Origin: Naegleria gruberi
Taxonomy: Eukaryota
NCBI GenBank assembly: GCA_000004985.1
Contig: GG738928.1
Length of the DNA: 64,000 bases
Reading direction: 5' to 3' (one strand)
The position numbers were made by a program, and so were the translations under genes. This document shows positions 1 to 21,850 of the stretch, in pieces. How positions within the stretch are numbered: the stretch's first letter is position 1; every line of letters starts with the position of its first letter. The notes beneath the pieces are model-generated. The model made no database searches. It worked only from the letters and a program-made list of their open reading frames with translations, and was not told the DNA's origin.

Positions 1-403
1 CCATACCCAAACCCAAACCCAAACCCAAACCCAAACCCAAATCCAAACCCAAACCCAAACCCAAACCCAAACCCAAACCCAAACCCAAACCCAAACCCAA
101 ACCCAAACCCAAACCCAAACCCAAACCCAACCCAAACCCAAACCCAAACCCAAACCCAAACCCAAACCCAACCCAAACCCAAACCCAAACCCAAACCCAA
201 ACCCAAACCCAAACCCAACCCAAACCCAAACCCAAACCCAAACCCAAACCCAAACCCAAACCCAAACCCAAACCCAAACCCAAACCCAAACCCAAACCCA
301 AACCCAAACCCAAACCCAAACCCAAACCCAAACCCAAACCCAAACCCAAACCCAAACCCAAACCCAAACCCAAACCCAAACCCAAACCCAAACCCAAACC
401 CAG
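1..403. repeat. Telomeric repeat array, (CCCAAA)n on + strand (G-strand TTTGGG), about 67 units with occasional CCCAA and CCAAAT variants; marks a chromosome left end
   Basis: Direct reading shows perfect hexamer periodicity from base 1 to about 403. Degenerate telomere-like words (ctaaacccaacg, caaaccctagcccaaaa) continue to about 460. The C-rich strand reads 5' to 3' at the sequence start. Confidence 0.85.
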
Positions 404-526
404 AACTAAAAATAGAATTCTTCTAAACCCAACGTTCAAACCCTAGCCCAAAATTATAAACTTATTCAAATATCATTAAATTTTATATCATTCGATAGGA
501 AATGATGAGTAGAACAACGTGGTATA

Positions 527-1053
527 TTTAGTTTTTCAATTTATAAAATATTAACTTTGTAAATAATATCAGATTAAAATTTCAAATATACAACTATAGG
601 AAGAATGATAATTTCAAAATCCTTTAATGAGATTATATAGTCTATATCATCGTTAACAACATTCATAATCACTTTCATATAAAATTTCAAAAGTTCATGT
701 CAGTAGGTATAAAAGTATCAAGTGAAAAGGGATATTGTGAGGTACAATAGGTCAACTATAACTTTTGAGTTTCTCATCAAAACATATTGAATCCTGACAT
801 GAAAATGTTCCATTTGATGAGTAAACATCGAATATCAAATTTATTTTGACTTTCATATTTAAAGATTTCTTCCTTCAATCATACATGGTCAACTAGGTAT
901 GAAAAGGATAACTTGAAAAAGAACCACTTTTGAAACTTTACCAACATGATATAGATGATCTATAATGATGTAGAATTCAATTTCATACCATAAAAATCAG
1001 AAATAGTACCATGGAAAGGTAAATGTTGATACATTATTGTTGACTTTAAGAAA
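527..1053. repeat. Subtelomeric repeat family A, copy 1 (truncated by the N-run at 1054)
   Basis: The segment aligns at roughly 85-90% identity with 15493..15990. The shared text runs from tttgtaaataat..cagattaaaattt to ggaaaggtaaatgttgata..ttgactttaagaaa. Confidence 0.75.
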
Positions 1054-4000
1054 NNNNNNNNNNNNNNNNNNNNNNNNNNNNNNNNNNNNNNNNNNNNNNN
1101 NNNNNNNNNNNNNNNNNNNNNNNNNNNNNNNNNNNNNNNNNNNNNNNNNNNNNNNNNNNNNNNNNNNNNNNNNNNNNNNNNNNNNNNNNNNNNNNNNNNN
1201 NNNNNNNNNNNNNNNNNNNNNNNNNNNNNNNNNNNNNNNNNNNNNNNNNNNNNNNNNNNNNNNNNNNNNNNNNNNNNNNNNNNNNNNNNNNNNNNNNNNN
1301 NNNNNNNNNNNNNNNNNNNNNNNNNNNNNNNNNNNNNNNNNNNNNNNNNNNNNNNNNNNNNNNNNNNNNNNNNNNNNNNNNNNNNNNNNNNNNNNNNNNN
1401 NNNNNNNNNNNNNNNNNNNNNNNNNNNNNNNNNNNNNNNNNNNNNNNNNNNNNNNNNNNNNNNNNNNNNNNNNNNNNNNNNNNNNNNNNNNNNNNNNNNN
1501 NNNNNNNNNNNNNNNNNNNNNNNNNNNNNNNNNNNNNNNNNNNNNNNNNNNNNNNNNNNNNNNNNNNNNNNNNNNNNNNNNNNNNNNNNNNNNNNNNNNN
1601 NNNNNNNNNNNNNNNNNNNNNNNNNNNNNNNNNNNNNNNNNNNNNNNNNNNNNNNNNNNNNNNNNNNNNNNNNNNNNNNNNNNNNNNNNNNNNNNNNNNN
1701 NNNNNNNNNNNNNNNNNNNNNNNNNNNNNNNNNNNNNNNNNNNNNNNNNNNNNNNNNNNNNNNNNNNNNNNNNNNNNNNNNNNNNNNNNNNNNNNNNNNN
1801 NNNNNNNNNNNNNNNNNNNNNNNNNNNNNNNNNNNNNNNNNNNNNNNNNNNNNNNNNNNNNNNNNNNNNNNNNNNNNNNNNNNNNNNNNNNNNNNNNNNN
1901 NNNNNNNNNNNNNNNNNNNNNNNNNNNNNNNNNNNNNNNNNNNNNNNNNNNNNNNNNNNNNNNNNNNNNNNNNNNNNNNNNNNNNNNNNNNNNNNNNNNN
2001 NNNNNNNNNNNNNNNNNNNNNNNNNNNNNNNNNNNNNNNNNNNNNNNNNNNNNNNNNNNNNNNNNNNNNNNNNNNNNNNNNNNNNNNNNNNNNNNNNNNN
2101 NNNNNNNNNNNNNNNNNNNNNNNNNNNNNNNNNNNNNNNNNNNNNNNNNNNNNNNNNNNNNNNNNNNNNNNNNNNNNNNNNNNNNNNNNNNNNNNNNNNN
2201 NNNNNNNNNNNNNNNNNNNNNNNNNNNNNNNNNNNNNNNNNNNNNNNNNNNNNNNNNNNNNNNNNNNNNNNNNNNNNNNNNNNNNNNNNNNNNNNNNNNN
2301 NNNNNNNNNNNNNNNNNNNNNNNNNNNNNNNNNNNNNNNNNNNNNNNNNNNNNNNNNNNNNNNNNNNNNNNNNNNNNNNNNNNNNNNNNNNNNNNNNNNN
2401 NNNNNNNNNNNNNNNNNNNNNNNNNNNNNNNNNNNNNNNNNNNNNNNNNNNNNNNNNNNNNNNNNNNNNNNNNNNNNNNNNNNNNNNNNNNNNNNNNNNN
2501 NNNNNNNNNNNNNNNNNNNNNNNNNNNNNNNNNNNNNNNNNNNNNNNNNNNNNNNNNNNNNNNNNNNNNNNNNNNNNNNNNNNNNNNNNNNNNNNNNNNN
2601 NNNNNNNNNNNNNNNNNNNNNNNNNNNNNNNNNNNNNNNNNNNNNNNNNNNNNNNNNNNNNNNNNNNNNNNNNNNNNNNNNNNNNNNNNNNNNNNNNNNN
2701 NNNNNNNNNNNNNNNNNNNNNNNNNNNNNNNNNNNNNNNNNNNNNNNNNNNNNNNNNNNNNNNNNNNNNNNNNNNNNNNNNNNNNNNNNNNNNNNNNNNN
2801 NNNNNNNNNNNNNNNNNNNNNNNNNNNNNNNNNNNNNNNNNNNNNNNNNNNNNNNNNNNNNNNNNNNNNNNNNNNNNNNNNNNNNNNNNNNNNNNNNNNN
2901 NNNNNNNNNNNNNNNNNNNNNNNNNNNNNNNNNNNNNNNNNNNNNNNNNNNNNNNNNNNNNNNNNNNNNNNNNNNNNNNNNNNNNNNNNNNNNNNNNNNN
3001 NNNNNNNNNNNNNNNNNNNNNNNNNNNNNNNNNNNNNNNNNNNNNNNNNNNNNNNNNNNNNNNNNNNNNNNNNNNNNNNNNNNNNNNNNNNNNNNNNNNN
3101 NNNNNNNNNNNNNNNNNNNNNNNNNNNNNNNNNNNNNNNNNNNNNNNNNNNNNNNNNNNNNNNNNNNNNNNNNNNNNNNNNNNNNNNNNNNNNNNNNNNN
3201 NNNNNNNNNNNNNNNNNNNNNNNNNNNNNNNNNNNNNNNNNNNNNNNNNNNNNNNNNNNNNNNNNNNNNNNNNNNNNNNNNNNNNNNNNNNNNNNNNNNN
3301 NNNNNNNNNNNNNNNNNNNNNNNNNNNNNNNNNNNNNNNNNNNNNNNNNNNNNNNNNNNNNNNNNNNNNNNNNNNNNNNNNNNNNNNNNNNNNNNNNNNN
3401 NNNNNNNNNNNNNNNNNNNNNNNNNNNNNNNNNNNNNNNNNNNNNNNNNNNNNNNNNNNNNNNNNNNNNNNNNNNNNNNNNNNNNNNNNNNNNNNNNNNN
3501 NNNNNNNNNNNNNNNNNNNNNNNNNNNNNNNNNNNNNNNNNNNNNNNNNNNNNNNNNNNNNNNNNNNNNNNNNNNNNNNNNNNNNNNNNNNNNNNNNNNN
3601 NNNNNNNNNNNNNNNNNNNNNNNNNNNNNNNNNNNNNNNNNNNNNNNNNNNNNNNNNNNNNNNNNNNNNNNNNNNNNNNNNNNNNNNNNNNNNNNNNNNN
3701 NNNNNNNNNNNNNNNNNNNNNNNNNNNNNNNNNNNNNNNNNNNNNNNNNNNNNNNNNNNNNNNNNNNNNNNNNNNNNNNNNNNNNNNNNNNNNNNNNNNN
3801 NNNNNNNNNNNNNNNNNNNNNNNNNNNNNNNNNNNNNNNNNNNNNNNNNNNNNNNNNNNNNNNNNNNNNNNNNNNNNNNNNNNNNNNNNNNNNNNNNNNN
3901 NNNNNNNNNNNNNNNNNNNNNNNNNNNNNNNNNNNNNNNNNNNNNNNNNNNNNNNNNNNNNNNNNNNNNNNNNNNNNNNNNNNNNNNNNNNNNNNNNNNN

Positions 4001-6305
4001 NNNNNNNNNNNNNNNNNNNNNNNNNNNNNNNNNNNNNNNNNNNNNNNNNNNNNNNNNNNNNNNNNNNNNNNNNNNNNNNNNNNNNNNNNNNNNNNNNNNN
4101 NNNNNNNNNNNNNNNNNNNNNNNNNNNNNNNNNNNNNNNNNNNNNNNNNNNNNNNNNNNNNNNNNNNNNNNNNNNNNNNNNNNNNNNNNNNNNNNNNNNN
4201 NNNNNNNNNNNNNNNNNNNNNNNNNNNNNNNNNNNNNNNNNNNNNNNNNNNNNNNNNNNNNNNNNNNNNNNNNNNNNNNNNNNNNNNNNNNNNNNNNNNN
4301 NNNNNNNNNNNNNNNNNNNNNNNNNNNNNNNNNNNNNNNNNNNNNNNNNNNNNNNNNNNNNNNNNNNNNNNNNNNNNNNNNNNNNNNNNNNNNNNNNNNN
4401 NNNNNNNNNNNNNNNNNNNNNNNNNNNNNNNNNNNNNNNNNNNNNNNNNNNNNNNNNNNNNNNNNNNNNNNNNNNNNNNNNNNNNNNNNNNNNNNNNNNN
4501 NNNNNNNNNNNNNNNNNNNNNNNNNNNNNNNNNNNNNNNNNNNNNNNNNNNNNNNNNNNNNNNNNNNNNNNNNNNNNNNNNNNNNNNNNNNNNNNNNNNN
4601 NNNNNNNNNNNNNNNNNNNNNNNNNNNNNNNNNNNNNNNNNNNNNNNNNNNNNNNNNNNNNNNNNNNNNNNNNNNNNNNNNNNNNNNNNNNNNNNNNNNN
4701 NNNNNNNNNNNNNNNNNNNNNNNNNNNNNNNNNNNNNNNNNNNNNNNNNNNNNNNNNNNNNNNNNNNNNNNNNNNNNNNNNNNNNNNNNNNNNNNNNNNN
4801 NNNNNNNNNNNNNNNNNNNNNNNNNNNNNNNNNNNNNNNNNNNNNNNNNNNNNNNNNNNNNNNNNNNNNNNNNNNNNNNNNNNNNNNNNNNNNNNNNNNN
4901 NNNNNNNNNNNNNNNNNNNNNNNNNNNNNNNNNNNNNNNNNNNNNNNNNNNNNNNNNNNNNNNNNNNNNNNNNNNNNNNNNNNNNNNNNNNNNNNNNNNN
5001 NNNNNNNNNNNNNNNNNNNNNNNNNNNNNNNNNNNNNNNNNNNNNNNNNNNNNNNNNNNNNNNNNNNNNNNNNNNNNNNNNNNNNNNNNNNNNNNNNNNN
5101 NNNNNNNNNNNNNNNNNNNNNNNNNNNNNNNNNNNNNNNNNNNNNNNNNNNNNNNNNNNNNNNNNNNNNNNNNNNNNNNNNNNNNNNNNNNNNNNNNNNN
5201 NNNNNNNNNNNNNNNNNNNNNNNNNNNNNNNNNNNNNNNNNNNNNNNNNNNNNNNNNNNNNNNNNNNNNNNNNNNNNNNNNNNNNNNNNNNNNNNNNNNN
5301 NNNNNNNNNNNNNNNNNNNNNNNNNNNNNNNNNNNNNNNNNNNNNNNNNNNNNNNNNNNNNNNNNNNNNNNNNNNNNNNNNNNNNNNNNNNNNNNNNNNN
5401 NNNNNNNNNNNNNNNNNNNNNNNNNNNNNNNNNNNNNNNNNNNNNNNNNNNNNNNNNNNNNNNNNNNNNNNNNNNNNNNNNNNNNNNNNNNNNNNNNNNN
5501 NNNNNNNNNNNNNNNNNNNNNNNNNNNNNNNNNNNNNNNNNNNNNNNNNNNNNNNNNNNNNNNNNNNNNNNNNNNNNNNNNNNNNNNNNNNNNNNNNNNN
5601 NNNNNNNNNNNNNNNNNNNNNNNNNNNNNNNNNNNNNNNNNNNNNNNNNNNNNNNNNNNNNNNNNNNNNNNNNNNNNNNNNNNNNNNNNNNNNNNNNNNN
5701 NNNNNNNNNNNNNNNNNNNNNNNNNNNNNNNNNNNNNNNNNNNNNNNNNNNNNNNNNNNNNNNNNNNNNNNNNNNNNNNNNNNNNNNNNNNNNNNNNNNN
5801 NNNNNNNNNNNNNNNNNNNNNNNNNNNNNNNNNNNNNNNNNNNNNNNNNNNNNNNNNNNNNNNNNNNNNNNNNNNNNNNNNNNNNNNNNNNNNNNNNNNN
5901 NNNNNNNNNNNNNNNNNNNNNNNNNNNNNNNNNNNNNNNNNNNNNNNNNNNNNNNNNNNNNNNNNNNNNNNNNNNNNNNNNNNNNNNNNNNNNNNNNNNN
6001 NNNNNNNNNNNNNNNNNNNNNNNNNNNNNNNNNNNNNNNNNNNNNNNNNNNNNNNNNNNNNNNNNNNNNNNNNNNNNNNNNNNNNNNNNNNNNNNNNNNN
6101 NNNNNNNNNNNNNNNNNNNNNNNNNNNNNNNNNNNNNNNNNNNNNNNNNNNNNNNNNNNNNNNNNNNNNNNNNNNNNNNNNNNNNNNNNNNNNNNNNNNN
6201 NNNNNNNNNNNNNNNNNNNNNNNNNNNNNNNNNNNNNNNNNNNNNNNNNNNNNNNNNNNNNNNNNNNNNNNNNNNNNNNNNNNNNNNNNNNNNNNNNNNN
6301 NNNNN
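1054..6305. other. Unresolved N-run (5252 N); assembly gap or masked sequence
   Basis: All bases are N. The ORFs 997..6336, 1037..6343 and 1046..6514 consist mostly of X and are artefacts apart from their real flanks. Confidence 0.99.
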
Positions 6306-7695
6306 GAGAGTACAATAGAAAATATCTCCATTTCAATTCTTGATATTATTAAGAATGTCAAAAAAATTCCCAGTACAGAAATACCAATGCCAATAACAAT
6401 ATTGAGTAAGAGATTTCTAGTTTCATCGATAAAGGTCTTTTGGCTAACTTGCATCGATTTACAAAATGCTAAGAAAGCATCAGCACCTGTTCTTCTATTT
6501 TGATAAATATACATAAACTCATAACTACAATATTAATATTATAAATTTGAATTCTTCTTACCTCGTTACAACTTCATAAAATTTCATCTTTCCATTCATA
6601 ACTGAATTTTCAATGTGTTCCAAAATGACGGAGTTTACTTCTCTTGTAGAAGCATATCTTTTAAAAATGTTAGTAAACTCTTTCCTTATTCCTGTATCGT
6701 TAGGGAGTGGAATATTGATAAGCTTATCTTCTATTGTAAAATCAGTAAACATTCCAGGTGTAAATACGCCTGAATTGGAGTTCTCCTCCAACTTTCTTAA
6801 CGCTTCTCTCTTTAGTTCAATCTTTTCCATAAAGGTGCTGTTGAACAATTGTATATTATCGTATTCTGTTGTATTAACCAATGGAAATGGACTTTTTAAA
6901 TCATCATAAAACTCCCAAACTATCTGAGCCATTCTCAAATTTCTAAATAAACCACCATAAGTACTCTGGATATAACATGAATCCTTAATAAGAGGAGATT
7001 TTGACAATAATGTTTGATAATAATTAGTTAATGCAAAACAAACAACCACCGTAGCAATACATAAGGAGAACATGAAAGCATAAGCAATTGTTCTTATTTT
7101 GGATTGGTAAGGAGAGCTGAGAGCATTTCGCAAAGCTTCTTCCTTTTTGTTCTCTGAGAGATTTTCTATTCCTTCAAAATCTTGTTTGCTTGTGAGAATT
7201 TCATCATCATCTTCTCTGAAGGCCTTTCTATCAACAGGGTAGATTCTCAAACTTGACCTTAAATTTCGTTTCAAGTTAGGTTGTTTGTAATGCTTTGATT
7301 CCTCTTCTTCTAGAACTGTCGCTTCTTCAAACAGTTGACTTGATAAGTTCTTGTCCAACTTGATGGATTCCACATATTTAGCATAGTGCCGTATAACAGT
7401 TTTATCATGTGGGAAATTCTTCATCAAGATTCCGAAATTTTCATCACAATACCTAGTTAATTTTGCTGAAAGAGAGTTTAAATTGGCTAGCTTTGATGTA
7501 TTTGGCCTTTCAATAGTAAGCTCTTTCCAGAATGCTTTATGAGCAATTTTGAGCTCCTCTTGTTTCTTTTCAAGAATAGAAATTGCATTCTTAATCTCTA
7601 ATGTGTACCGACCTTGACATGACAAATTACTTTGATCTCTTTCAAATTGTTTCACTCTATAATGCATATTGAGAGTTTCCCAATAATTTCCTCCT
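6306..7695 (-). CDS. Partial gene for a large multi-pass membrane protein (possibly channel or transporter-like). Two exons joined by a short intron at 6525..6561 (alternative acceptor near 6496). Both the 5' and 3' continuations are lost in N-runs.
   Basis: A continuous minus-strand frame covers 7695..6562 and ends ...KFYEVVT. The apparent TAA stop is part of a GTAAGA donor. The same frame resumes after an attgtag acceptor as YEFMYIYQNRRTGADAFLAF..LLLNIVIGIGISVLGIFLTFLII and then runs into the N-run. There are at least two predicted TM segments (IAYAFMFSLCIATVVVCFAL and the one above) and a coiled-coil-like region. Confidence 0.5.
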
Positions 7696-10600
7696 NNNNN
7701 NNNNNNNNNNNNNNNNNNNNNNNNNNNNNNNNNNNNNNNNNNNNNNNNNNNNNNNNNNNNNNNNNNNNNNNNNNNNNNNNNNNNNNNNNNNNNNNNNNNN
7801 NNNNNNNNNNNNNNNNNNNNNNNNNNNNNNNNNNNNNNNNNNNNNNNNNNNNNNNNNNNNNNNNNNNNNNNNNNNNNNNNNNNNNNNNNNNNNNNNNNNN
7901 NNNNNNNNNNNNNNNNNNNNNNNNNNNNNNNNNNNNNNNNNNNNNNNNNNNNNNNNNNNNNNNNNNNNNNNNNNNNNNNNNNNNNNNNNNNNNNNNNNNN
8001 NNNNNNNNNNNNNNNNNNNNNNNNNNNNNNNNNNNNNNNNNNNNNNNNNNNNNNNNNNNNNNNNNNNNNNNNNNNNNNNNNNNNNNNNNNNNNNNNNNNN
8101 NNNNNNNNNNNNNNNNNNNNNNNNNNNNNNNNNNNNNNNNNNNNNNNNNNNNNNNNNNNNNNNNNNNNNNNNNNNNNNNNNNNNNNNNNNNNNNNNNNNN
8201 NNNNNNNNNNNNNNNNNNNNNNNNNNNNNNNNNNNNNNNNNNNNNNNNNNNNNNNNNNNNNNNNNNNNNNNNNNNNNNNNNNNNNNNNNNNNNNNNNNNN
8301 NNNNNNNNNNNNNNNNNNNNNNNNNNNNNNNNNNNNNNNNNNNNNNNNNNNNNNNNNNNNNNNNNNNNNNNNNNNNNNNNNNNNNNNNNNNNNNNNNNNN
8401 NNNNNNNNNNNNNNNNNNNNNNNNNNNNNNNNNNNNNNNNNNNNNNNNNNNNNNNNNNNNNNNNNNNNNNNNNNNNNNNNNNNNNNNNNNNNNNNNNNNN
8501 NNNNNNNNNNNNNNNNNNNNNNNNNNNNNNNNNNNNNNNNNNNNNNNNNNNNNNNNNNNNNNNNNNNNNNNNNNNNNNNNNNNNNNNNNNNNNNNNNNNN
8601 NNNNNNNNNNNNNNNNNNNNNNNNNNNNNNNNNNNNNNNNNNNNNNNNNNNNNNNNNNNNNNNNNNNNNNNNNNNNNNNNNNNNNNNNNNNNNNNNNNNN
8701 NNNNNNNNNNNNNNNNNNNNNNNNNNNNNNNNNNNNNNNNNNNNNNNNNNNNNNNNNNNNNNNNNNNNNNNNNNNNNNNNNNNNNNNNNNNNNNNNNNNN
8801 NNNNNNNNNNNNNNNNNNNNNNNNNNNNNNNNNNNNNNNNNNNNNNNNNNNNNNNNNNNNNNNNNNNNNNNNNNNNNNNNNNNNNNNNNNNNNNNNNNNN
8901 NNNNNNNNNNNNNNNNNNNNNNNNNNNNNNNNNNNNNNNNNNNNNNNNNNNNNNNNNNNNNNNNNNNNNNNNNNNNNNNNNNNNNNNNNNNNNNNNNNNN
9001 NNNNNNNNNNNNNNNNNNNNNNNNNNNNNNNNNNNNNNNNNNNNNNNNNNNNNNNNNNNNNNNNNNNNNNNNNNNNNNNNNNNNNNNNNNNNNNNNNNNN
9101 NNNNNNNNNNNNNNNNNNNNNNNNNNNNNNNNNNNNNNNNNNNNNNNNNNNNNNNNNNNNNNNNNNNNNNNNNNNNNNNNNNNNNNNNNNNNNNNNNNNN
9201 NNNNNNNNNNNNNNNNNNNNNNNNNNNNNNNNNNNNNNNNNNNNNNNNNNNNNNNNNNNNNNNNNNNNNNNNNNNNNNNNNNNNNNNNNNNNNNNNNNNN
9301 NNNNNNNNNNNNNNNNNNNNNNNNNNNNNNNNNNNNNNNNNNNNNNNNNNNNNNNNNNNNNNNNNNNNNNNNNNNNNNNNNNNNNNNNNNNNNNNNNNNN
9401 NNNNNNNNNNNNNNNNNNNNNNNNNNNNNNNNNNNNNNNNNNNNNNNNNNNNNNNNNNNNNNNNNNNNNNNNNNNNNNNNNNNNNNNNNNNNNNNNNNNN
9501 NNNNNNNNNNNNNNNNNNNNNNNNNNNNNNNNNNNNNNNNNNNNNNNNNNNNNNNNNNNNNNNNNNNNNNNNNNNNNNNNNNNNNNNNNNNNNNNNNNNN
9601 NNNNNNNNNNNNNNNNNNNNNNNNNNNNNNNNNNNNNNNNNNNNNNNNNNNNNNNNNNNNNNNNNNNNNNNNNNNNNNNNNNNNNNNNNNNNNNNNNNNN
9701 NNNNNNNNNNNNNNNNNNNNNNNNNNNNNNNNNNNNNNNNNNNNNNNNNNNNNNNNNNNNNNNNNNNNNNNNNNNNNNNNNNNNNNNNNNNNNNNNNNNN
9801 NNNNNNNNNNNNNNNNNNNNNNNNNNNNNNNNNNNNNNNNNNNNNNNNNNNNNNNNNNNNNNNNNNNNNNNNNNNNNNNNNNNNNNNNNNNNNNNNNNNN
9901 NNNNNNNNNNNNNNNNNNNNNNNNNNNNNNNNNNNNNNNNNNNNNNNNNNNNNNNNNNNNNNNNNNNNNNNNNNNNNNNNNNNNNNNNNNNNNNNNNNNN
10001 NNNNNNNNNNNNNNNNNNNNNNNNNNNNNNNNNNNNNNNNNNNNNNNNNNNNNNNNNNNNNNNNNNNNNNNNNNNNNNNNNNNNNNNNNNNNNNNNNNNN
10101 NNNNNNNNNNNNNNNNNNNNNNNNNNNNNNNNNNNNNNNNNNNNNNNNNNNNNNNNNNNNNNNNNNNNNNNNNNNNNNNNNNNNNNNNNNNNNNNNNNNN
10201 NNNNNNNNNNNNNNNNNNNNNNNNNNNNNNNNNNNNNNNNNNNNNNNNNNNNNNNNNNNNNNNNNNNNNNNNNNNNNNNNNNNNNNNNNNNNNNNNNNNN
10301 NNNNNNNNNNNNNNNNNNNNNNNNNNNNNNNNNNNNNNNNNNNNNNNNNNNNNNNNNNNNNNNNNNNNNNNNNNNNNNNNNNNNNNNNNNNNNNNNNNNN
10401 NNNNNNNNNNNNNNNNNNNNNNNNNNNNNNNNNNNNNNNNNNNNNNNNNNNNNNNNNNNNNNNNNNNNNNNNNNNNNNNNNNNNNNNNNNNNNNNNNNNN
10501 NNNNNNNNNNNNNNNNNNNNNNNNNNNNNNNNNNNNNNNNNNNNNNNNNNNNNNNNNNNNNNNNNNNNNNNNNNNNNNNNNNNNNNNNNNNNNNNNNNNN

Positions 10601-13076
10601 NNNNNNNNNNNNNNNNNNNNNNNNNNNNNNNNNNNNNNNNNNNNNNNNNNNNNNNNNNNNNNNNNNNNNNNNNNNNNNNNNNNNNNNNNNNNNNNNNNNN
10701 NNNNNNNNNNNNNNNNNNNNNNNNNNNNNNNNNNNNNNNNNNNNNNNNNNNNNNNNNNNNNNNNNNNNNNNNNNNNNNNNNNNNNNNNNNNNNNNNNNNN
10801 NNNNNNNNNNNNNNNNNNNNNNNNNNNNNNNNNNNNNNNNNNNNNNNNNNNNNNNNNNNNNNNNNNNNNNNNNNNNNNNNNNNNNNNNNNNNNNNNNNNN
10901 NNNNNNNNNNNNNNNNNNNNNNNNNNNNNNNNNNNNNNNNNNNNNNNNNNNNNNNNNNNNNNNNNNNNNNNNNNNNNNNNNNNNNNNNNNNNNNNNNNNN
11001 NNNNNNNNNNNNNNNNNNNNNNNNNNNNNNNNNNNNNNNNNNNNNNNNNNNNNNNNNNNNNNNNNNNNNNNNNNNNNNNNNNNNNNNNNNNNNNNNNNNN
11101 NNNNNNNNNNNNNNNNNNNNNNNNNNNNNNNNNNNNNNNNNNNNNNNNNNNNNNNNNNNNNNNNNNNNNNNNNNNNNNNNNNNNNNNNNNNNNNNNNNNN
11201 NNNNNNNNNNNNNNNNNNNNNNNNNNNNNNNNNNNNNNNNNNNNNNNNNNNNNNNNNNNNNNNNNNNNNNNNNNNNNNNNNNNNNNNNNNNNNNNNNNNN
11301 NNNNNNNNNNNNNNNNNNNNNNNNNNNNNNNNNNNNNNNNNNNNNNNNNNNNNNNNNNNNNNNNNNNNNNNNNNNNNNNNNNNNNNNNNNNNNNNNNNNN
11401 NNNNNNNNNNNNNNNNNNNNNNNNNNNNNNNNNNNNNNNNNNNNNNNNNNNNNNNNNNNNNNNNNNNNNNNNNNNNNNNNNNNNNNNNNNNNNNNNNNNN
11501 NNNNNNNNNNNNNNNNNNNNNNNNNNNNNNNNNNNNNNNNNNNNNNNNNNNNNNNNNNNNNNNNNNNNNNNNNNNNNNNNNNNNNNNNNNNNNNNNNNNN
11601 NNNNNNNNNNNNNNNNNNNNNNNNNNNNNNNNNNNNNNNNNNNNNNNNNNNNNNNNNNNNNNNNNNNNNNNNNNNNNNNNNNNNNNNNNNNNNNNNNNNN
11701 NNNNNNNNNNNNNNNNNNNNNNNNNNNNNNNNNNNNNNNNNNNNNNNNNNNNNNNNNNNNNNNNNNNNNNNNNNNNNNNNNNNNNNNNNNNNNNNNNNNN
11801 NNNNNNNNNNNNNNNNNNNNNNNNNNNNNNNNNNNNNNNNNNNNNNNNNNNNNNNNNNNNNNNNNNNNNNNNNNNNNNNNNNNNNNNNNNNNNNNNNNNN
11901 NNNNNNNNNNNNNNNNNNNNNNNNNNNNNNNNNNNNNNNNNNNNNNNNNNNNNNNNNNNNNNNNNNNNNNNNNNNNNNNNNNNNNNNNNNNNNNNNNNNN
12001 NNNNNNNNNNNNNNNNNNNNNNNNNNNNNNNNNNNNNNNNNNNNNNNNNNNNNNNNNNNNNNNNNNNNNNNNNNNNNNNNNNNNNNNNNNNNNNNNNNNN
12101 NNNNNNNNNNNNNNNNNNNNNNNNNNNNNNNNNNNNNNNNNNNNNNNNNNNNNNNNNNNNNNNNNNNNNNNNNNNNNNNNNNNNNNNNNNNNNNNNNNNN
12201 NNNNNNNNNNNNNNNNNNNNNNNNNNNNNNNNNNNNNNNNNNNNNNNNNNNNNNNNNNNNNNNNNNNNNNNNNNNNNNNNNNNNNNNNNNNNNNNNNNNN
12301 NNNNNNNNNNNNNNNNNNNNNNNNNNNNNNNNNNNNNNNNNNNNNNNNNNNNNNNNNNNNNNNNNNNNNNNNNNNNNNNNNNNNNNNNNNNNNNNNNNNN
12401 NNNNNNNNNNNNNNNNNNNNNNNNNNNNNNNNNNNNNNNNNNNNNNNNNNNNNNNNNNNNNNNNNNNNNNNNNNNNNNNNNNNNNNNNNNNNNNNNNNNN
12501 NNNNNNNNNNNNNNNNNNNNNNNNNNNNNNNNNNNNNNNNNNNNNNNNNNNNNNNNNNNNNNNNNNNNNNNNNNNNNNNNNNNNNNNNNNNNNNNNNNNN
12601 NNNNNNNNNNNNNNNNNNNNNNNNNNNNNNNNNNNNNNNNNNNNNNNNNNNNNNNNNNNNNNNNNNNNNNNNNNNNNNNNNNNNNNNNNNNNNNNNNNNN
12701 NNNNNNNNNNNNNNNNNNNNNNNNNNNNNNNNNNNNNNNNNNNNNNNNNNNNNNNNNNNNNNNNNNNNNNNNNNNNNNNNNNNNNNNNNNNNNNNNNNNN
12801 NNNNNNNNNNNNNNNNNNNNNNNNNNNNNNNNNNNNNNNNNNNNNNNNNNNNNNNNNNNNNNNNNNNNNNNNNNNNNNNNNNNNNNNNNNNNNNNNNNNN
12901 NNNNNNNNNNNNNNNNNNNNNNNNNNNNNNNNNNNNNNNNNNNNNNNNNNNNNNNNNNNNNNNNNNNNNNNNNNNNNNNNNNNNNNNNNNNNNNNNNNNN
13001 NNNNNNNNNNNNNNNNNNNNNNNNNNNNNNNNNNNNNNNNNNNNNNNNNNNNNNNNNNNNNNNNNNNNNNNNNNNN
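7696..13076. other. Unresolved N-run (5381 N)
   Basis: All bases are N. The ORFs 6558..13160, 7632..13094, 7652..13090 and 7657..13239 are X-filled artefacts except for the real segment 6558..7695. Confidence 0.99.
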
Positions 13077-13873
13077 CCGAGTCCCAACACTTGACATCAC
13101 TCTCATCATTCTCAGCATCGGCAAAACCAAATGTCTTGGATGTATATCTTTCCTCAGCACTTGATGAACTTAGCGGTGAATGTTTACATAAGGCAGAGAC
13201 TATCATGACAGTTATTGGTGTTATTGTATTTGTTTTCAAATTATCTCAACTCACGATTCAACAGCATGTTGATTCTCAAGTTATTGTTGTTGTTGTTGTG
13301 GATGTGCCTCTTTGGTATCAAGTCGCGTTGTGTTTGAGGTGACCACATCAAAGAAATCTGCAGAATTTTTTGGTACAATTAAGGTGATTATAAATAAATA
13401 AGGTCAATGACAACGTTGGGTTTTAAAACAAAATGGAATAGTCAATTTGGTAATATTAAGAAAATCCAAAAGAGGATGCCATGATGGTAGACGTTGAACT
13501 ACCTTAATATACGGTAGGTGGACATTGAACGGAGAATGTAAACTTTAAAATTGTTTTAATATTCAACCAATTCCAATCTCGTATCACAAAAAACATGTGT
13601 ATCAATTAGAGCGTCGATTCGCTTATTGAAATTTCTAGATGATTAAGGAAAATATGGAAGAAGATATGGCGAATTAACTTCATTACTAAATTAGTAACAA
13701 TTAATATTAATTTAATATGAAATCAATGAGAAGGAGTATTGATTCACATTGTTCTTTCTCCTCTCCTTATCACCTAATTGTTCACAATAATGTATAGTCA
13801 ATCAAACAATTAAAGATGTTACATGGAATACCTCACATCTGAACAACCTCTATTCATTAAGTTTATTTTGTTA

Positions 13874-13923
13874 NNNNNNNNNNNNNNNNNNNNNNNNNNN
13901 NNNNNNNNNNNNNNNNNNNNNNN
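13874..13923. other. Short N-run (50 N) at the edge of a repeat copy
   Basis: All bases are N. A partial copy of repeat C starts immediately after it. Confidence 0.99.
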
Positions 13924-14235
13924 TGTCAACACTTAATATATCTTAGTGAACACTCCATCTCAATGAAAGTACATCCAATAATCCTGTAACTTTACAAATT
14001 ACGTTTAATCACACTATTATACATCTGGTATCAATTTTATAGTGTTAGAATTGAATTCAATATGATAATAATAACAATCTTTCAAAATGTCACATTTCAA
14101 TATATAGAATATACTCCATCTCAGTCAATTTACAATATATCATACAAGTATCAAGTATGGATATACTCCCCTAGATGAGGAGAACAATCTGAGAAAGTTT
14201 CATGTTCATGGCTCTGTATCTTCAAGTCAACTAAG
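13924..14235. repeat. Dispersed repeat family C, copy 0 (includes the last roughly 25 bp of family B)
   Basis: Aligns with 16915..17190 and 21590..21850. Shared blocks include tagtgaacactccatctcagtgaaagt..ataataataacaatctttcaaaatgtcacatttcaa..ctccatctcagtca. Confidence 0.7.
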
Positions 14236-15467: not shown

Positions 15468-15492
15468 GAATCCTAACCAAACCCAACCCACT
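15468..15492. repeat. Interstitial telomere-like seed (cctaaccaaacccaaccca) immediately 5' of repeat A copy 2
   Basis: A short degenerate run of CCCAAA-type units is seen directly, abutting the start of the second family-A copy. Confidence 0.55.
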
Positions 15493-15990
15493 TTGTAAAT
15501 AATGTCAGATTAAAATTTCTAAAATGAAACCATAGGAAGAATGATAATTTCAAAATCCTTTAATGAGATTATATAGTATATATCATCATTAACAACATTT
15601 ATAATCACTTTCATATAAAATTTCAAAAGTTCAAGTCTGTAGATATAAAAGTATAGAGGGAAAAGGGAAGTTGTGAGGTACAAGAGGTCAACTATAACTT
15701 TTGAGTTTCTCATCAAAACATATTGAATCCTAATATGAAAATGTTCCATTTGATGAGTATACGTCGAATATCAAATTTATTTTAACTTTCATATTTACAG
15801 ATTTCTTCCCTCAACCATCATACGGTCAACTATGATGAACAGGATGAAATCTTGAAAAAGGACCACCTATTGAAACTTTACCAAAATGATGTACATGATC
15901 TATAATGATATAGAATTCAATTTCATGTCCTAATAATCAGAAATGGTATCATGGGAAGGTAAATGTTGATATTTTTTGGTTGACTTTAGA
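15493..15990. repeat. Subtelomeric repeat family A, copy 2 (internal)
   Basis: About 500 bp aligns to 527..1053 at roughly 85-90% identity. It is followed at 16035..16255 by a degenerate partial third copy sharing gaaaatgctccattcgatgagta..atcaagtttattttaactttt..gaaactttaccatcatg. Confidence 0.75.
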
Positions 15991-16034
15991 GAAAGACAAG
16001 TCAGACCAACTCTATCAAATACATCACTTCAACC

Positions 16035-16255
16035 AACAATATATACATGAAAATGCTCCATTCGATGAGTAGAGATAGAATATCAAGTTTATTTTAACTT
16101 TTATATTCACGATTTCAACTCTAACATGCCATCTGATAAACTATGGACACGGATGAATTTCTGGAAAATGACCACTTTATGAAACTTTACCATCATGTTA
16201 TACATCTCTACTAATGTATATGGTTCAATTTTCAGACAGTTTGGTGAACATTCTA
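16035..16255. repeat. Degenerate partial copy of repeat family A
   Basis: Shares blocks with family A (ccatt[ct]gatgagta, atatcaa[ag]tttatttt[ga]actt, gaaactttacca.catg.tatacat.tcta.taatg) at lower identity. Confidence 0.5.
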
Positions 16256-16470
16256 TCTTTCAATAAGGCAAAGGGTGAAATTTCAAGGTTGTCTTTGGAA
16301 GATCAGGAGGAAATCTTGAATATAGAGAACCAAATCCTCAATCTACAAAATACATATCAATCGATTGGAAATCAATAGTACATCTCGAAAATATCATTTA
16401 TTTTATGTTTTGAAATCTCTCCTTGACCTCTTTTAGTCAATTAAGACAATTAAGGATGAGACTATAGGAA

Positions 16471-17190
16471 AAGTTACCAATCTCAAAATAAATGATAATA
16501 TCGTGTTCCACATCTCAAATAAAGTGGACTTTCTTCAAATTATATATTTTCATTTCAATAAATGCATCCGTTAGATAGTACATGGTGATATTTCAATGGA
16601 ATGGATGGAAATCTGAAAGGTACAGAAACAACTCCATTTTCACTTAAATCAATATCATTACATGTAGACGCTCTAATTAGAATATGATATCAATTTCATG
16701 AATATTGGTTCAGTAGATGTCGACATGTCAACTCTATCAATTTACTATAGACATTTGACATGATATCATAGATTAAGCTCCAACTCACTCATTTTACGTA
16801 CAATCAGTCTAGAAATGATGATAAATAATATACACATCTATAAAATACATCTACAATAGTTTAAAAACGTTTCAAACTACTTTCATAAAATTAATCAGTA
16901 AATGTTCAATGTCAATCCTAGGTATACCATAGTGAACACTTCATCTCAGTGAAGGTACACCCAATCATCCTATAACTTTGCCAGATACGTTTAATCATAC
17001 TATTGTACATATTGTATTAATTTTAGATATTCTGAATAGAAATTGACTTGATAATAATAACAATCTGTCAAAAAAGTAACTTTTCAATATATAGAATACG
17101 CTCCAGCTCATTCAGTTTGTATAATATCAAACAAGTATGAAACATGAACACATTCCTATTGGTGATAGGTACAATCTGAGAAAGATTCAT
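16471..17190. repeat. Composite dispersed repeat B+C, copy 1
   Basis: Aligns along its whole length with 21141..21850. Shared text runs from aagttaccaatctcaaaataaatgataatatcgtgttc.acatctcaaataaagtggacttt through ctccatctcagtca. Confidence 0.75.
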
Positions 17191-17214
17191 TGTGAAGAAG
17201 TTGGGTCTTGTCAT

Positions 17215-19700
17215 CATACAAGAATTGAATCAAGTATCCATTTACTTGGATTGAACTTTACATAAGCACACCGGGTTTGAGCCACACCAAGCTCATTTGA
17301 GAAAGTGTAATTTAATTTTACAACGGGTTTGAGCCACACCATGTTCATTTGAAACAATTTCAAGTCGTTTTTACATCGGGTTTGACGACAACCACTGTTT
17401 AAAGATAACATTTGTGAAAAATCGACTGATCTCAATCATTATTAAGAATTTGAGTATACTCCAATGGAATGTTACCATCTACATACAGTTTAGAACATTT
17501 TCCATCCCCTTGTAAAAATTCCTTAATAATTTTGAAATATTCAAAGTTCAGTAAGAATGCAAAAATTTTAATTTGTTGTATAGTATAATACAGTATCATC
17601 AAAAAGTTGGATAACTCATTCTTTTGAAAAGAAGCAACGGGTTTGAGCCACTCCACGTTCATTTGAAACAATTTCAAAAAGTTTTTACATCGGGTTGGAT
17701 GACAACCATTGTTTTAAAGATTACAGTTGTGAAAAATCGACTGATCTCAATCATTTCTGAGAATTTAAGTATACTGTAAAGGACTGGTACCATTTCTATC
17801 GAGTTTTGAACATTTTCCATCTACTTGAAAAAATTCCTTACTAATTGTGAAGTAAGAAAAGTTCAGTAAGAATGTAAAAATTTTAATTTGTTGTATAGTA
17901 TAATACAGTCTTGTCAAAAGGTTGGATACGTCACTCTTTCGAAAAGAAGCAACGGGTTTGAGCCACTCCACGTTCATTTGAAACAATTTCAAACAGTTTT
18001 TACATCGGGTTGGATAACAACCATTGTTTTAAAGATTACAGTTGTGAAAAAATGGCAAATCTCAATCATTTTTGAGAATTTAACTATACTGTAAAAGACT
18101 GTCACCATTTCCATCGAGTTTTGAACATTTTCCAATCACTTGTAAAAAATTCTTAATAATTGTGAACTACTCAAAGTTCACTAAGATAGAAATATTTCAT
18201 AAACTTATAGTTCCTTATTGTAAGGAATTGTCAAAAGGTCTGAAATCCACTTTCATGAATATAATCAACAGGTTTGAGCCAATCCATGTTCATTTGAAAC
18301 AATTTCAAACAGTTTTTACATCGGGTTGGATGACAACCACTGTTTTAAAGATTACAGTTGTGAAAAAATGGAAAATCTCAATCATTATGGATATTTTGAG
18401 TATACTCCAATGGAATGTTACTATCTACATACAGTTTAGAACATTTTCCATCCCCTTGTAAAAATTCCTTAATAATTTTGAAATATTCAAAGTTCAGTAA
18501 GATTGCAAACAATTTACTTTGTTGAATAGTGTATTACAGCCTCATCACAATCGATCAGGAACTTTTTTGAAAAGAAGCAACGGGTTTGAGCCACTCCAAG
18601 CTCATTTGAAACAGTTTCAAAAAGTTTTTACATCGGGTTGGATGACAACCACTGTTTTAAAGATTACAGTTGTGAAAAAATGGCAAATCTCAATCATTTT
18701 TGAGAATTTAAGTATACTGTAAAGGACTGGTACCATTTCCATCGAGTTTTGAACATTTTCCATCTACTTGAAAAAATTCCTTACTAATTGTGAAATATTC
18801 AAAGTTCAGTAAGAAAGTTTAATTGTGAAAATGTTGCCAGAATACCAGTTAAAATTGTATTCCGATTGAATTTTACGTAAGCACACCGGGTTTGAGCCAC
18901 ACCAAGCTCATTTAAGAAAGTTTAATTTAATTTTACAACGGGTTTGAGCCAGTCCATGGAGTTGTTAGTAAAGAGTGGTTGGATGAAATCACTGTTTCAA
19001 AGATAACAGTTGTGAAAAATCGACCAATCTCAATCATTATTAAGAATTTGAGTATAGTTCAATGGAATTATACCATCTATAGCCAGTTTTGAACATTTTC
19101 CATCGACTTGTAAAAATTCCTTAATAATTAGGATGAAGGAAAAGTTCACTAAGAAAAGACAATGTTAATTTGTTGAACAGTATTGTACAATCCCCACCTA
19201 AAGGTTGAATAAGTCACTCTTTTGAGAAGAAGCAACGGGTTTGAGCAACTCCAAGCTCATTTGAAACATTTAATAGTAGTTGTTACATCGGGTTGGATGA
19301 CAACCACTGTTTTAAAGATTACAGTTGTGAAAAATAGACTGATCTCAATCATTATTGAGAATTTAAGTACACTTTAAAGGACTGCCACCATTTCCATCGA
19401 TTTTGGAACATTTTCCATCTACTTGAAACAATNNNNNNNNNNNNNNNNNNNNNNNNNNNNNNNNNNNNNNNNNNNNNNNNNNCATTTGAAACAATTTCAA
19501 ACAGTTTTAATCGGGTTGGATGACAACCATTGTTTAAAAGATAACAGTTGTGAAAAAATGGCAAATCTCAATCATTTCTTAGAATTTAACTATGCTGTAA
19601 CGGAATGTTACCATCTACAGCAATTTTAGAACACTTTCCATCTACTTGAAACAATTCCTTAATAATTATGATGCAAGCAAAGTTCACTAAGAAAAGAATA
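17215..19700. repeat. Tandem satellite array, about 8 units with period roughly 300-330 bp
   Basis: A conserved core (caacgggtttgagccactccacgttcatttgaaacaatttcaaacagtttttacatcgggttggatgacaaccactgttttaaagattacagttgtgaaaaaatggcaaatctcaatcatt..gagaatttaagtatactgtaaaggactg..ccatttccatcgagttttgaacattttccatc) recurs at about 17636, 17951, 18272, 18587, 18937, 19238 and 19483, with shortened variants at 17272 and 18887. A 50-N run lies inside the array. The repeated small ORFs here (MKLFQMNVEWLKPVASF...) derive from the repeat. Confidence 0.8.
19433..19482. other. Short N-run (50 N) inside the satellite array
   Basis: All bases are N. Confidence 0.99.
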
Positions 19701-21126
19701 TTTCAAAAACTTATTGTTGGTGGAATGATTCTGCACAACTATAGAGCATCTCCTTGTTCCGATATTGTACATGTGGATATTAGTAAAAAAACCACCACTA
19801 TAACAAAATTTTTTGTTTTGGTCCAACAGATGATGAGAATTGGCACTTGTAAATGTTGAAAATAATGTTATACCAATTCTACATCATACACAACTTGGCT
19901 ACTTATCCATCATTTACAAAATGATACAATTGAAATAAATATCATATCTCAATTTAAATATAGAGATGGTCAATTAAGGTACCTCAATAGGGAAGTACCC
20001 TAAGGACAATGAGATTCAATACCAAATTGATACAATATGTTATTAACATCATATAATGAGGTTTCTATCAATTTCAAATCATTTGGACATCATTCAGTAT
20101 TCATGCCATTTAACCATGTCACTAACTACTCATGATAATATGACAAGTCAATATCAAGATGTTCAACAAGATAGAATATCATACAAATACTCTTATAATT
20201 GATGTTCATAACGTATTTGAGTGATACAAATCAATATCTATATAATTGGACTATCTGTCAAGCTACTGTCCTAATTGACAAAAAGGTAACATTCTTACAT
20301 GTCATGAATGGTAATAATCAACACCAATTCAATACTACCATGTTATAATCATCAAATACTCTCATCGAATCAATTTTGGAATGATTTCAATATCATCTTA
20401 GATAGTTATCATATGACAAAGTTACTACCTTAGTGAACTACCCACGTCATTAATAAATGTCTAAAACCAAATCTTTCAATTATATATTCATATATATATC
20501 AATAATAGTGTATAATATCAGTTTTATAATATATAATCAATTATTGGTATGATGGCAATATTTCAATTAAACATTGACATTGCAACATTTCGCAAATTGG
20601 AAATATAGGTCATAACATCATGATATTCAACATTTAGTGATAAAGTAAAACGATGACATATATTATCCAATAAAATATTCAGATCCCTTTAAAAGTGTTA
20701 ACCACATCAAAAGCTCCCCATGCAAGTTGACTTCCAAAAGTCTCAAAATGGATCCAATCATGATTTTTTCAGTGATATATGATTACCATTCATATTCACT
20801 ACTGTATTTATCAGTATTATTGAATTTTATTGTGTTTCCATATTATAGGTCAACATCTTGGTCAATTAATCATTTACTAGTAGAAAAGCTACAAGGAAAT
20901 GTTTCTCTCTAGTCACCACCCAATAACCTCCTCTTCATGAAGAAGAGTTCCAAATCTTGAGATGAGAACCTTGTTCACTTTCAATATGTTGAATTAATGC
21001 AACCACTTTCCCATTCTTCTATCAAGTGTTGTCACAATAAGAAGCTTCTGATTCGTATCAACAATAAACAATTTCAAAATCTTAAATCAATAAGAGATTG
21101 GAGTAAGAGGTATCCGAGGTTCGTAG

Positions 21127-21140
21127 AACCAAACCCAAAG
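21127..21140. repeat. Interstitial telomere-like seed (aaccaaacccaaag) immediately 5' of repeat B copy 2
   Basis: Seen directly at the junction with copy 2 of repeat B. Copy 1 of B (16471) lacks the seed. Confidence 0.45.
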
Positions 21141-21850
21141 TTACCAATCTCAAAATAAATGATAATATCGTGTTCTACATCTCAAATAAAGTGGACTTTC
21201 ATCAAATTATATATTTTCATTTCAAGAAATGCATCCAGTAGATAGTACATGGTGATTTGTCAGGAGAATGGATGGAAATCTGAAGGGTCCAGAAACAACT
21301 CCAATTTAACTGAAATTGATATCATGGTATGTAGACACTCTAATTAGTATGTGGTATCAATTTCATGAATATTGGTTCAGTAGATGTCGAGATGTCAACA
21401 CTATCAATTTACTATAGACATTTGACATAATATCATAGATTATACTCCAACTCACTCATTTTACATATAATAAGTCTAGAATTGATACCACATAGTCTAT
21501 ATATCAATTAATATACATCTACAATAGTTAAGAAACATTTCAAACTATTTTCATAAAATTAATCAGTAAATGTTCAATATCAACATTATATATATCCTAG
21601 TGAACACTCCATCTCAGTGAAAGTTATTCCAATCATTCTGTAACTTTACCCAATACGTTTAATCACATTATTATACATCTGGTATCAATTGCATACAGTT
21701 AGAATTGAATTCAATATGATAATAATAACAATCTTTCAAAATGTCACATTTCAAAAAAAAGATTACACTCCATCTCAGTCAGTTTACAAATATCATACTA
21801 GTATCAAATATGAATACACTCCTCTTGATGAGGATCTGAGAAGTTTCAAT
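21141..21850. repeat. Composite dispersed repeat B+C, copy 2
   Basis: Aligns with 16471..17190 at roughly 85% identity, with indels. Confidence 0.75.

What the first reader, a model, noticed from the sequence alone, without database searches (positions are those of the whole stretch)
1..470. Chromosome end with a TTTGGG-type telomere unit
The array is (CCCAAA)n rather than the common CCCTAA or CCCCAA. Variants include CCCAA, ATCCAAACCC and an initial CCATAC. The hexamer TTTGGG is not a standard telomere unit in well-studied fungi or animals, so it gives a clue to lineage and to the telomerase RNA template.
Basis: seen in the sequence. Interest (0 to 1): 0.5.

Follow-up and report, generated by a model that had tools for sequence, protein, structure and literature searches.

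The report
Naegleria gruberi TTTGGG telomere, already reported
The window starts with a real chromosome-end repeat, (TTTGGG)n, of the amoeboflagellate Naegleria gruberi; a 2013 genome survey already proposed this repeat as that species' telomere, so the finding is correct but not new.

Summary
Bases 1-402 are a (CCCAAA)n array: 62 perfect units, three CCCAA units, one TCCAAA and an initial CCATAC. Degenerate remnants run to about 452. Dinucleotide shuffles expect 0.4 dimer matches; 63 fall in the array.

The array sits at base 1 with the C-rich strand reading 5'->3' inward. That is the orientation expected of a telomere at a left chromosome end.

The window is Naegleria gruberi: an ORF at 48477-50099 is 100% identical to NAEGRDRAFT_75708. 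Fulneckova et al. 2013 (PMC3622300) already named TTTGGG as the candidate N. gruberi telomere from the genome assembly. The finding is therefore already known.

One detail seems new. The only two other telomere-like tracts in the window (15474-15491 and 21129-21139) have the same orientation. Each abuts the telomere-side edge of a duplicated subtelomeric block, and one of those blocks is a copy of the telomere-adjacent sequence itself. They look like vestigial telomeres at duplicon boundaries.

Not tested here: other N. gruberi scaffold ends, telomeres of other Naegleria species, TERT, the telomerase RNA template, and physical terminality.

TTTGGG is not diagnostic of lineage. Thirty-one metagenome contigs also end in it in telomeric orientation.

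The parts
1..402 (-). Telomere repeat array. The + strand reads (CCCAAA)n, so the G-rich strand (TTTGGG)n is on the - strand and runs 5'->3' towards base 1, the end. It has 62 perfect units plus CCATAC (1-6), TCCAAA (42-47) and CCCAA (126, 167, 214). The 30 units next to the subtelomere (219-398) are perfect.
403..553 (.). Telomere-subtelomere junction. It is AT-rich, has no ORF, and carries degenerate telomere-like units up to about 452 (TAAACCCAACG, CAAACCCTAGCCCAAAA).
554..1053 (+). Telomere-adjacent sequence, copy 1. It is cut off by the 5252-N scaffold gap at 1054-6305. Bases 403-1053 as a whole are 26% G+C.
15474..15491 (-). Vestigial interstitial telomere tract, CTAACCAAACCCAACCCA on the + strand, in the same orientation as the terminal array. 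It abuts the distal edge of copy 2 of the telomere-adjacent sequence.
15490..15994 (+). Telomere-adjacent sequence, copy 2. It is 89% identical over 506 bp to 554-1053.
21129..21139 (-). Vestigial interstitial telomere tract, CCAAACCCAAA on the + strand, in the same orientation. It abuts the distal edge of duplicon 21137-21831. The sister copy at 16470 lacks it.
16470..17165 (+). Subtelomeric duplicon, sister of 21137-21831 (84% identity over 697 bp).
21137..21831 (+). Subtelomeric duplicon, sister of 16470-17165.
17307..19833 (.). Subtelomeric satellite with a unit of about 315 bp and at least 8 diverged copies (60-92% identity). It is interrupted by a 50-N gap at 19433-19482.

Best explanation
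This is the telomere and subtelomere at one end of a Naegleria gruberi nuclear chromosome, as represented by a 160.6-kb scaffold of the published assembly.

Shown:
- About 400 bp of TTTGGG/CCCAAA repeats lie at the extreme end of the sequence, in canonical telomeric orientation.
- Next come a degenerate junction and then a gene-poor patchwork of duplicated blocks and a 315-bp satellite, extending to about 23 kb. Dense genes follow.
- Short telomere tracts in the same orientation mark the distal edges of two internal duplicons.

Inferred from general telomere biology (Tetrahymena, Paramecium, human), not shown here:
- A telomerase whose RNA template carries about 1.5 copies of 5'-CCCAAA-3' synthesises the G-strand.
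- Occasional TTGGG units are slippage or skipping products.
- Double-strand and single-strand telomere-binding proteins cap the array.
- The internal tracts are relics of former chromosome ends. These ends were either healed or copied, then buried when more distal subtelomeric sequence was added by recombination or break-induced replication.
For: - Array anatomy and significance.
- Position at base 1 with the C-strand reading 5'->3' inward.
- Species identity: the ORF at 48477-50099(-) is 100% identical to NAEGRDRAFT_75708 of N. gruberi on a 160,583-bp contig. The N. fowleri and Willaertia orthologues are 76% and 70% identical. The ORFs are long and use the standard genetic code.
- Independent published report: TTTGGG was named the candidate telomeric repeat of N. 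gruberi from the position and orientation of repeat stretches in the assembly (PMC3622300).
- Internal support: the only two telomere-like tracts of at least 9 nt outside the array are both in the telomeric orientation. Each lies within 2 nt of the distal edge of a duplicated block. One of those blocks is a second copy of the telomere-adjacent sequence, 89% identical over 506 bp. The chance of both coincidences is about 3.5e-5.
- The CCCAA variant recurs independently in the array (three times), in the junction and in the internal relic.
- In metagenomes, terminal TTTGGG arrays are strongly biased to the telomeric orientation, 31 against 10, p = 0.0015. The motif therefore does serve as a chromosome end in nature.
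Against: - Terminality is shown only at the level of the assembly.
- The telomere-bearing contig (1-1053) is joined to the genes only through two N gaps of more than 5 kb (1054-6305 and 7696-13076), that is, by scaffolding.
- Other N. gruberi scaffold ends could not be inspected, because the assembly is not in the positional index.
- No N. fowleri or Willaertia contig end was within reach.
- TERT and the telomerase RNA were not examined.
- All variant units lie in the distal 215 bp, where assembly coverage is lowest. Some may be read errors and not telomerase products.
- The papers searched held no experimental confirmation such as Bal31, terminal restriction fragments or TRAP.
Confidence: 0.9

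Rival explanations
1. The array is an interstitial telomere-like microsatellite, or a misplaced contig. On this reading the assembly simply broke inside it, or the 1-kb contig was scaffolded onto the wrong locus.
For: The array contig is only 1053 bp long and is separated from the rest by a 5252-N gap. The metagenome scan shows that many (CCCAAA)n tracts are internal microsatellites.
Against: The array runs about 400 bp and is 97% pure. It has the correct orientation at the very end. Its flanking sequence recurs at 15.5 kb in the same scaffold, next to a telomere relic, which ties the contig to this subtelomere. The published survey classed N. gruberi among genomes with a convincing terminal pattern.
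Confidence: 0.05
2. The array is a genuine chromosome end but is maintained without telomerase, by recombination or rolling-circle copying of the array.
For: Neither TERT nor a telomerase RNA was examined here. The subtelomere shows much duplication.
Against: A short TnGm hexamer of 97% purity with a perfect 30-unit run is the typical product of a templated telomerase. The short 11-18 nt tracts at duplicon edges resemble telomere seeds. Telomerase-independent ends are usually long complex repeats or retroelements (general knowledge, not tested).
Confidence: 0.04
3. The array is contaminating ciliate (Paramecium-type) macronuclear DNA carrying G3T3 repeats.
For: Paramecium telomeres contain TTTGGG units. 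Some metagenome contigs with mixed TTGGGG/TTTGGG ends look ciliate-like.
Against: The array has no CCCCAA unit. The flank is repeated inside a scaffold whose genes are N. gruberi. The ORFs use the standard code.
Confidence: 0.01

Closest known systems
Candidate N. gruberi telomere TTTGGG (Fulneckova et al. 2013, Genome Biol Evol 5:468, PMC3622300)
   Same: Same organism, same repeat unit and same kind of evidence: terminal position and orientation in the JGI assembly. This window is one instance of what that survey reported.
   Different: That paper gives only the motif. Here the array is dissected unit by unit, and the adjoining subtelomere is described: duplicons, a 315-bp satellite and vestigial telomere tracts.
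Paramecium telomeres (random mix of TTGGGG and TTTGGG)
   Same: They contain the same G3T3 hexamer and belong to the A-less TnGm class. The variation is attributed to an imprecise telomerase.
   Different: The Naegleria array is essentially pure G3T3 with no G4T2. Its minor variant is TTGGG, one T short. The organism is a heterolobosean that uses the standard genetic code, not a ciliate.
Tetrahymena TTGGGG and Oxytricha TTTTGGGG telomeres
   Same: They are short TnGm repeats without A, made by telomerase from a template of about 1.5 repeats. That comparison rests on general knowledge. The motifs themselves are cited in PMC3622300.
   Different: The T and G counts differ. No Naegleria telomerase RNA is known, so the template is only inferred.
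Interstitial telomere-like tracts at human subtelomeric duplicon boundaries
   Same: Short, oriented telomere-repeat islands lie exactly at the distal edges of duplicated subtelomeric blocks.
   Different: The comparison rests on general knowledge, not on a test made here. The Naegleria tracts are only 11-18 nt long, and only two were seen.

Membership tests
Telomerase-type terminal telomere repeat (TnGm class) | Long head-to-tail array of a short repeat with strand asymmetry in G and C | tested here: met
   67.5 copies of a 6-nt unit with 97% matches; 62 perfect units.
Telomerase-type terminal telomere repeat (TnGm class) | Array at the physical end of the molecule, with the G-rich strand running 5'->3' towards the end | tested here: met
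   Met at assembly level only. The array starts at base 1 and the + strand is the C-strand. Physical terminality cannot be tested with these tools.
Telomerase-type terminal telomere repeat (TnGm class) | Same repeat at the other chromosome ends of the same genome | not testable with these tools
   The N. gruberi assembly is not in the positional index. The only support is the published survey.
Telomerase-type terminal telomere repeat (TnGm class) | Degenerate repeats at the junction, and telomere relics within the subtelomere | tested here: met
   Degenerate units at 403-452. Relics at 15474-15491 and 21129-21139 at duplicon edges.
Telomerase-type terminal telomere repeat (TnGm class) | TERT, plus a telomerase RNA whose template is complementary to the repeat | not tested
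   No telomerase RNA family matched in the window, at Rfam gathering thresholds over the whole window or at E<=1 over 13077-24500. The gene could lie anywhere in the 41-Mb genome. The Naegleria proteome could not be queried for TERT.
Telomerase-type terminal telomere repeat (TnGm class) | Bal31 sensitivity, or a heterogeneous terminal restriction fragment | not testable with these tools
   This needs an experiment. None was found in the papers searched.
Paramecium-type variable telomere of a ciliate macronuclear chromosome | Intermixed TTGGGG and TTTGGG units | tested here: not met
   No CCCCAA dimer anywhere in the window.
Paramecium-type variable telomere of a ciliate macronuclear chromosome | Host genes use the ciliate genetic code (TAA and TAG read as Gln) | tested here: not met
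   The window has long ORFs in the standard code with Pfam domains. One is 100% identical to an N. gruberi protein.
Interstitial telomeric sequence or plain microsatellite | Unique sequence on both sides of the array | tested here: inconclusive
   Nothing lies distal to base 1 in the window. Whether the scaffold starts there is inferred, not shown.

The most novel reading that the evidence does not exclude
The relic tracts at duplicon edges are the first glimpse of how Naegleria subtelomeres are built. On this reading they grow by burying former chromosome ends under newly copied distal blocks. The recurring TTGGG unit (three times in the array, once in the junction, once in a relic) would then be a genuine minor product of an imprecise Naegleria telomerase, not a sequencing error. 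Separately, pure-TTTGGG telomeres would be shared with at least one unsampled standard-code protist lineage: 13 contig ends of metagenome JAESGV01, one of them beside PPR-DYW genes. That would imply repeated independent origins of this motif.
Probability: 0.45. Interest if true: 0.3.

Novelty: already known. Interest (0 to 1): 0.15.

Why it matters
The finding confirms that this scaffold reaches a chromosome end. That is useful for judging assembly completeness and for designing a telomere probe or a TRAP primer for Naegleria. It also fixes the expected telomerase RNA template, a permutation of CCCAAA of about 9-11 nt, for anyone hunting the still unidentified heterolobosean telomerase RNA. 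It does not change what is known about telomere diversity, because the motif was published for this species in 2013. The oriented telomere relics at duplicon edges are a small new observation on subtelomere dynamics in a deep-branching eukaryote.

Tried and rejected
- **Direct look-ups of N. gruberi genes** to confirm scaffold coordinates and reach other scaffold ends. There was no record for the window ORF, for the NCBI model P0001, or for P0229, which sits on a 14-kb scaffold.
- **Orthologue look-ups to reach contig ends in relatives.** The N. fowleri gene lies more than 100 kb from its contig end. The Willaertia copies lie 32 and 92 kb from theirs. All are beyond the 10-kb flank, and none of the four loci holds a telomere-like dimer.
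- **Metagenome scan for (CCCAAA)6**. None shares non-repeat DNA or protein-level similarity with the window or with the Naegleria and Willaertia loci.
- **Two homologue searches to place the TTTGGG-ended metagenome contigs.** The PPR-DYW protein of L083 hit only plants, at 21-25% identity. The P4-ATPase of L006 gave best hits of about 48-53% across fungi, plants and animals, and 46% to N. gruberi. There is no evidence that these contigs are relatives of Naegleria.
- **Reading the internal CCAAACCCAA(A) tracts as telomerase RNA templates.** Rejected: Rfam gave no telomerase RNA hit, only a chance-level SNORA56 match at E = 0.39. Both tracts also sit at duplication edges.
- **Literature on Naegleria TERT, telomerase activity or N. 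fowleri telomeres.** Nothing relevant was found. The N. fowleri nanopore paper does not mention telomeres.
- **Supplementary table S5 of the 2013 survey.** It is not held as text.
- **The bacterial promoter and terminator scan on 1-1053**. It is irrelevant for a eukaryote.

Full report
**1. The observation**

Bases 1-402 of the window are a head-to-tail array of the hexamer CCCAAA. Tandem Repeats Finder gives period 6, 67.5 copies, 97% matches and score 769.

Parsing the sequence gives 62 perfect units in runs of 6, 13, 6, 7 and 30. They are separated by one TCCAAA (42-47) and three CCCAA units (126, 167, 214). The array is preceded by CCATAC at 1-6.

The dimer CCCAAACCCAAA, allowing one mismatch, matches 64 times, 63 of them within 1-404. 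Dinucleotide-preserving shuffles give a mean of 0.41.

No CCCCAA, CCCTAA or CCCTAAA dimers occur anywhere in the window.

The only correction concerns the coordinates. The array proper ends at 402. Bases 403-452 hold degenerate remnants (TAAACCCAACG, CAAACCCTAGCCCAAAA), and the rest up to 470 is AT-rich flank.

**2. Whose DNA it is**

The window has about 33% G+C in its gene-rich part. It holds five tRNA genes. It has many long ORFs in the standard code with eukaryotic domains, including cofilin, BTB, NHL/EGF, CCCH zinc fingers and a FAD-linked oxidase.

The FAD-oxidase ORF at 48477-50099(-) is 100% identical to NAEGRDRAFT_75708 of Naegleria gruberi, which lies on a contig of 160,583 bp. The next hits are N. 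fowleri at 76% and Willaertia magna at 70%. The window is therefore part of the published N. gruberi assembly.

The array starts exactly at base 1, so the window very probably begins at the scaffold end. This is an inference. The scaffold coordinates could not be retrieved.

**3. Is it a telomere?**

The + strand reads CCCAAA from the very first base. The G-rich strand (TTTGGG)n therefore runs 5'->3' towards the end, which is the canonical polarity.

Inside the array come:
- a 150-bp degenerate junction;
- a 500-bp AT-rich element (554-1053);
- two large scaffold gaps with a fragment of a TmcB-TPR gene between them;
- a gene-poor zone to about 23 kb that carries a 315-bp satellite (17307-19833) and several duplicated blocks.

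Dense genes begin only after that. This is the usual layout of a chromosome end.

The window also carries internal evidence. Outside the array, only two stretches match at least 9 nt of the repeat: CTAACCAAACCCAACCCA at 15474-15491 and CCAAACCCAAA at 21129-21139. Both have the same orientation as the terminal array.

The first abuts a second copy of the telomere-adjacent element. Bases 15490-15994 are 89% identical over 506 bp to 554-1053, and homology starts immediately after the tract.

The second abuts the distal edge of duplicon 21137-21831. Its sister copy at 16470-17165 lacks the tract.

Only 0.6% of positions in the window lie within 5 nt of such an edge. Both coincidences together have a chance of about 3.5e-5.

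I read these tracts as relics of earlier chromosome ends that were buried by later subtelomeric duplication. That reading is an inference, but it is the pattern known from human subtelomeres. It links the hexamer to end function in this genome independently of the terminal array.

**4. What is already known**

Fulneckova et al. 2013 (PMC3622300) searched 143 genome assemblies for TnAmGo-type arrays and judged them by position and orientation. [quoted passage not shown] They also note that experimental confirmation of terminal position is still required. Their supplementary table is not available as text.

I found no later paper with experimental work on Naegleria telomeres, telomerase or telomerase RNA. 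The N. fowleri nanopore assembly paper does not mention telomeres.

The same hexamer is known in Paramecium, intermixed with TTGGGG and attributed to an imprecise telomerase. Related units have recently been reported in insects: TTTGG in the rice weevil Sitophilus oryzae and TTTGGGTTTG in the parasitoid wasp Hyposoter dolosus.

**5. Mechanism**

The anatomy above is shown. The rest is inferred from well-studied TnGm telomeres:
- A telomerase adds TTTGGG using an RNA template that holds roughly one and a half copies of CCCAAA.
- Rare TTGGG units arise by slippage or by skipping one template base.
- The array is capped by duplex-binding and overhang-binding proteins.

A TRF-like Myb protein of N. 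fowleri is included in a published phylogeny. TERT was not examined.

TTGGG may be a real minor product, because CCCAA recurs in the array, in the junction (ACCCAACG) and in the 15.5-kb relic. Against that, all three array variants lie in the distal 215 bp while the proximal 30 units are perfect. This is the opposite of the usual pattern, in which the proximal part is degenerate and the distal part homogeneous. It is also where assembly coverage is thinnest, so read error cannot be excluded.

**6. What could not be done**

The N. gruberi assembly is not in the positional index, so other scaffold ends could not be checked.

The N. fowleri and Willaertia orthologues of the window gene are 32 kb to more than 100 kb from their contig ends. 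The BTB/D-lactate-dehydrogenase gene pair is syntenic between N. gruberi and N. fowleri. Synteny stops on the telomere side.

**7. Environmental survey**

- Thirty-one contigs carry the array at an end in telomeric orientation and ten carry it in the wrong orientation, p = 0.0015.
- The remaining hits are internal microsatellites, many in high-GC, probably bacterial, contigs.
- Thirteen correctly oriented ends come from one project, JAESGV01.
- Most of those thirteen are pure TTTGGG. Two are mixed with G4 runs.
- One contig (L083) carries PPR-DYW genes next to the telomere.
- Homologue searches with that protein and with a P4-ATPase from L006 found no close relative and no special affinity to Naegleria.

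The motif alone therefore does not identify a lineage.

**8. Verdict**

However, this telomere motif was published for this species in 2013, so it ranks as already known.

What is added here:
- a unit-level description of one end;
- the recurring TTGGG variant;
- two oriented telomere relics at subtelomeric duplicon boundaries;
- the observation that pure TTTGGG ends occur in other, unidentified protists.

Interest is low.

Noticed in passing
window 15474-15491 and 21129-21139: These are the only telomere-like tracts outside the array. Both are in telomeric orientation and both lie exactly at the distal edge of a duplicated subtelomeric block. One of those blocks is a second copy (15490-15994) of the telomere-adjacent sequence 554-1053. 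Chance of both is about 3.5e-5.
   Followed up: yes
window 17307-19833: A subtelomeric satellite with a unit of about 315 bp and at least 8 diverged copies. A separate periodicity of about 312 bp lies inside the telomere-adjacent element (15735-16231). Whether the two are related was not worked out.
   Followed up: partly
window 1054-6305, 7696-13076, 13874-13923, 19433-19482: Four N gaps, two of them longer than 5 kb. The telomere contig (1-1053) is linked to the genes only by scaffolding. A TmcB-TPR gene fragment (6561-7694, - strand) sits between the two large gaps and runs into them.
   Followed up: partly
L006, L028, L030, L041, L053, L076, L077, L081, L082, L083, L101, L114, L119 (all from JAESGV01): Thirteen contigs of one metagenome project end in TTTGGG arrays, all in telomeric orientation. 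The genes use the standard code, G+C is about 35%, and the genes include PPR-DYW proteins (L083) and a histidine-kinase-like ORF seen by eye (L041). Two homologue searches found no close relative, so this is an unidentified protist with the same telomere unit.
   Followed up: partly
L008, L081, L082: Contig ends that mix TTTGGG with TTGGGG or longer G runs, reminiscent of Paramecium-type variable telomeres.
   Followed up: no
L024 877-1000: A (TTTGGG)n tract runs directly into (CTTAGG)n, which is the nematode-type TTAGGC repeat, and is then followed by other sequence. This is an odd junction of two telomere-type repeats.
   Followed up: no
L063 (LUMJ01000369.1) 5-64: A contig whose genes look prokaryotic by eye begins with a CCCAAA array. 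This may be a chimeric assembly or a coincidental microsatellite. No domain search was run.
   Followed up: no
window 1-6 and L076 1-5: Both sequences start with the same variant, (C)CATAC, ahead of the perfect repeats. It is probably a chance or assembly-tip effect, being 1 of about 31 terminal contigs, but it was not explained.
   Followed up: no
window 37158-38231, 38572-39807, 40191-41441 (- strand) and 42728-43525 (+ strand): Three tandem Ser/Thr/Asn-rich ORFs end in a shared C-terminal motif: ELKSRLNSFKFP, ELKKRLELYSFP and YLKERLENYKFP. A fourth ORF nearby has a weaker form, MKRMNSFQFP. This was seen by eye in the translations. Only the ORF pair below was compared by nucleotide similarity.
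   Followed up: no
window 35974-36885 and 45551-46537 (- strand): Paralogous genes with 67% nucleotide identity over 578 bp. A weak EF-hand match was found for the second one only; the first was not scanned.
   Followed up: partly
window 48477-51827 versus L121 (N. fowleri VFQX01000051.1): The BTB gene and the D-lactate dehydrogenase gene are neighbours in both species. Synteny ends on the side that faces the N. gruberi telomere. The N. fowleri locus is more than 100 kb from a contig end.
   Followed up: partly
window 63552-64000 (- strand): A gene that looks like a trypsin-like serine protease is cut by the end of the window. It has a GDSGG motif and a trypsin-like C-terminal region. This was seen by eye only.
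   Followed up: no
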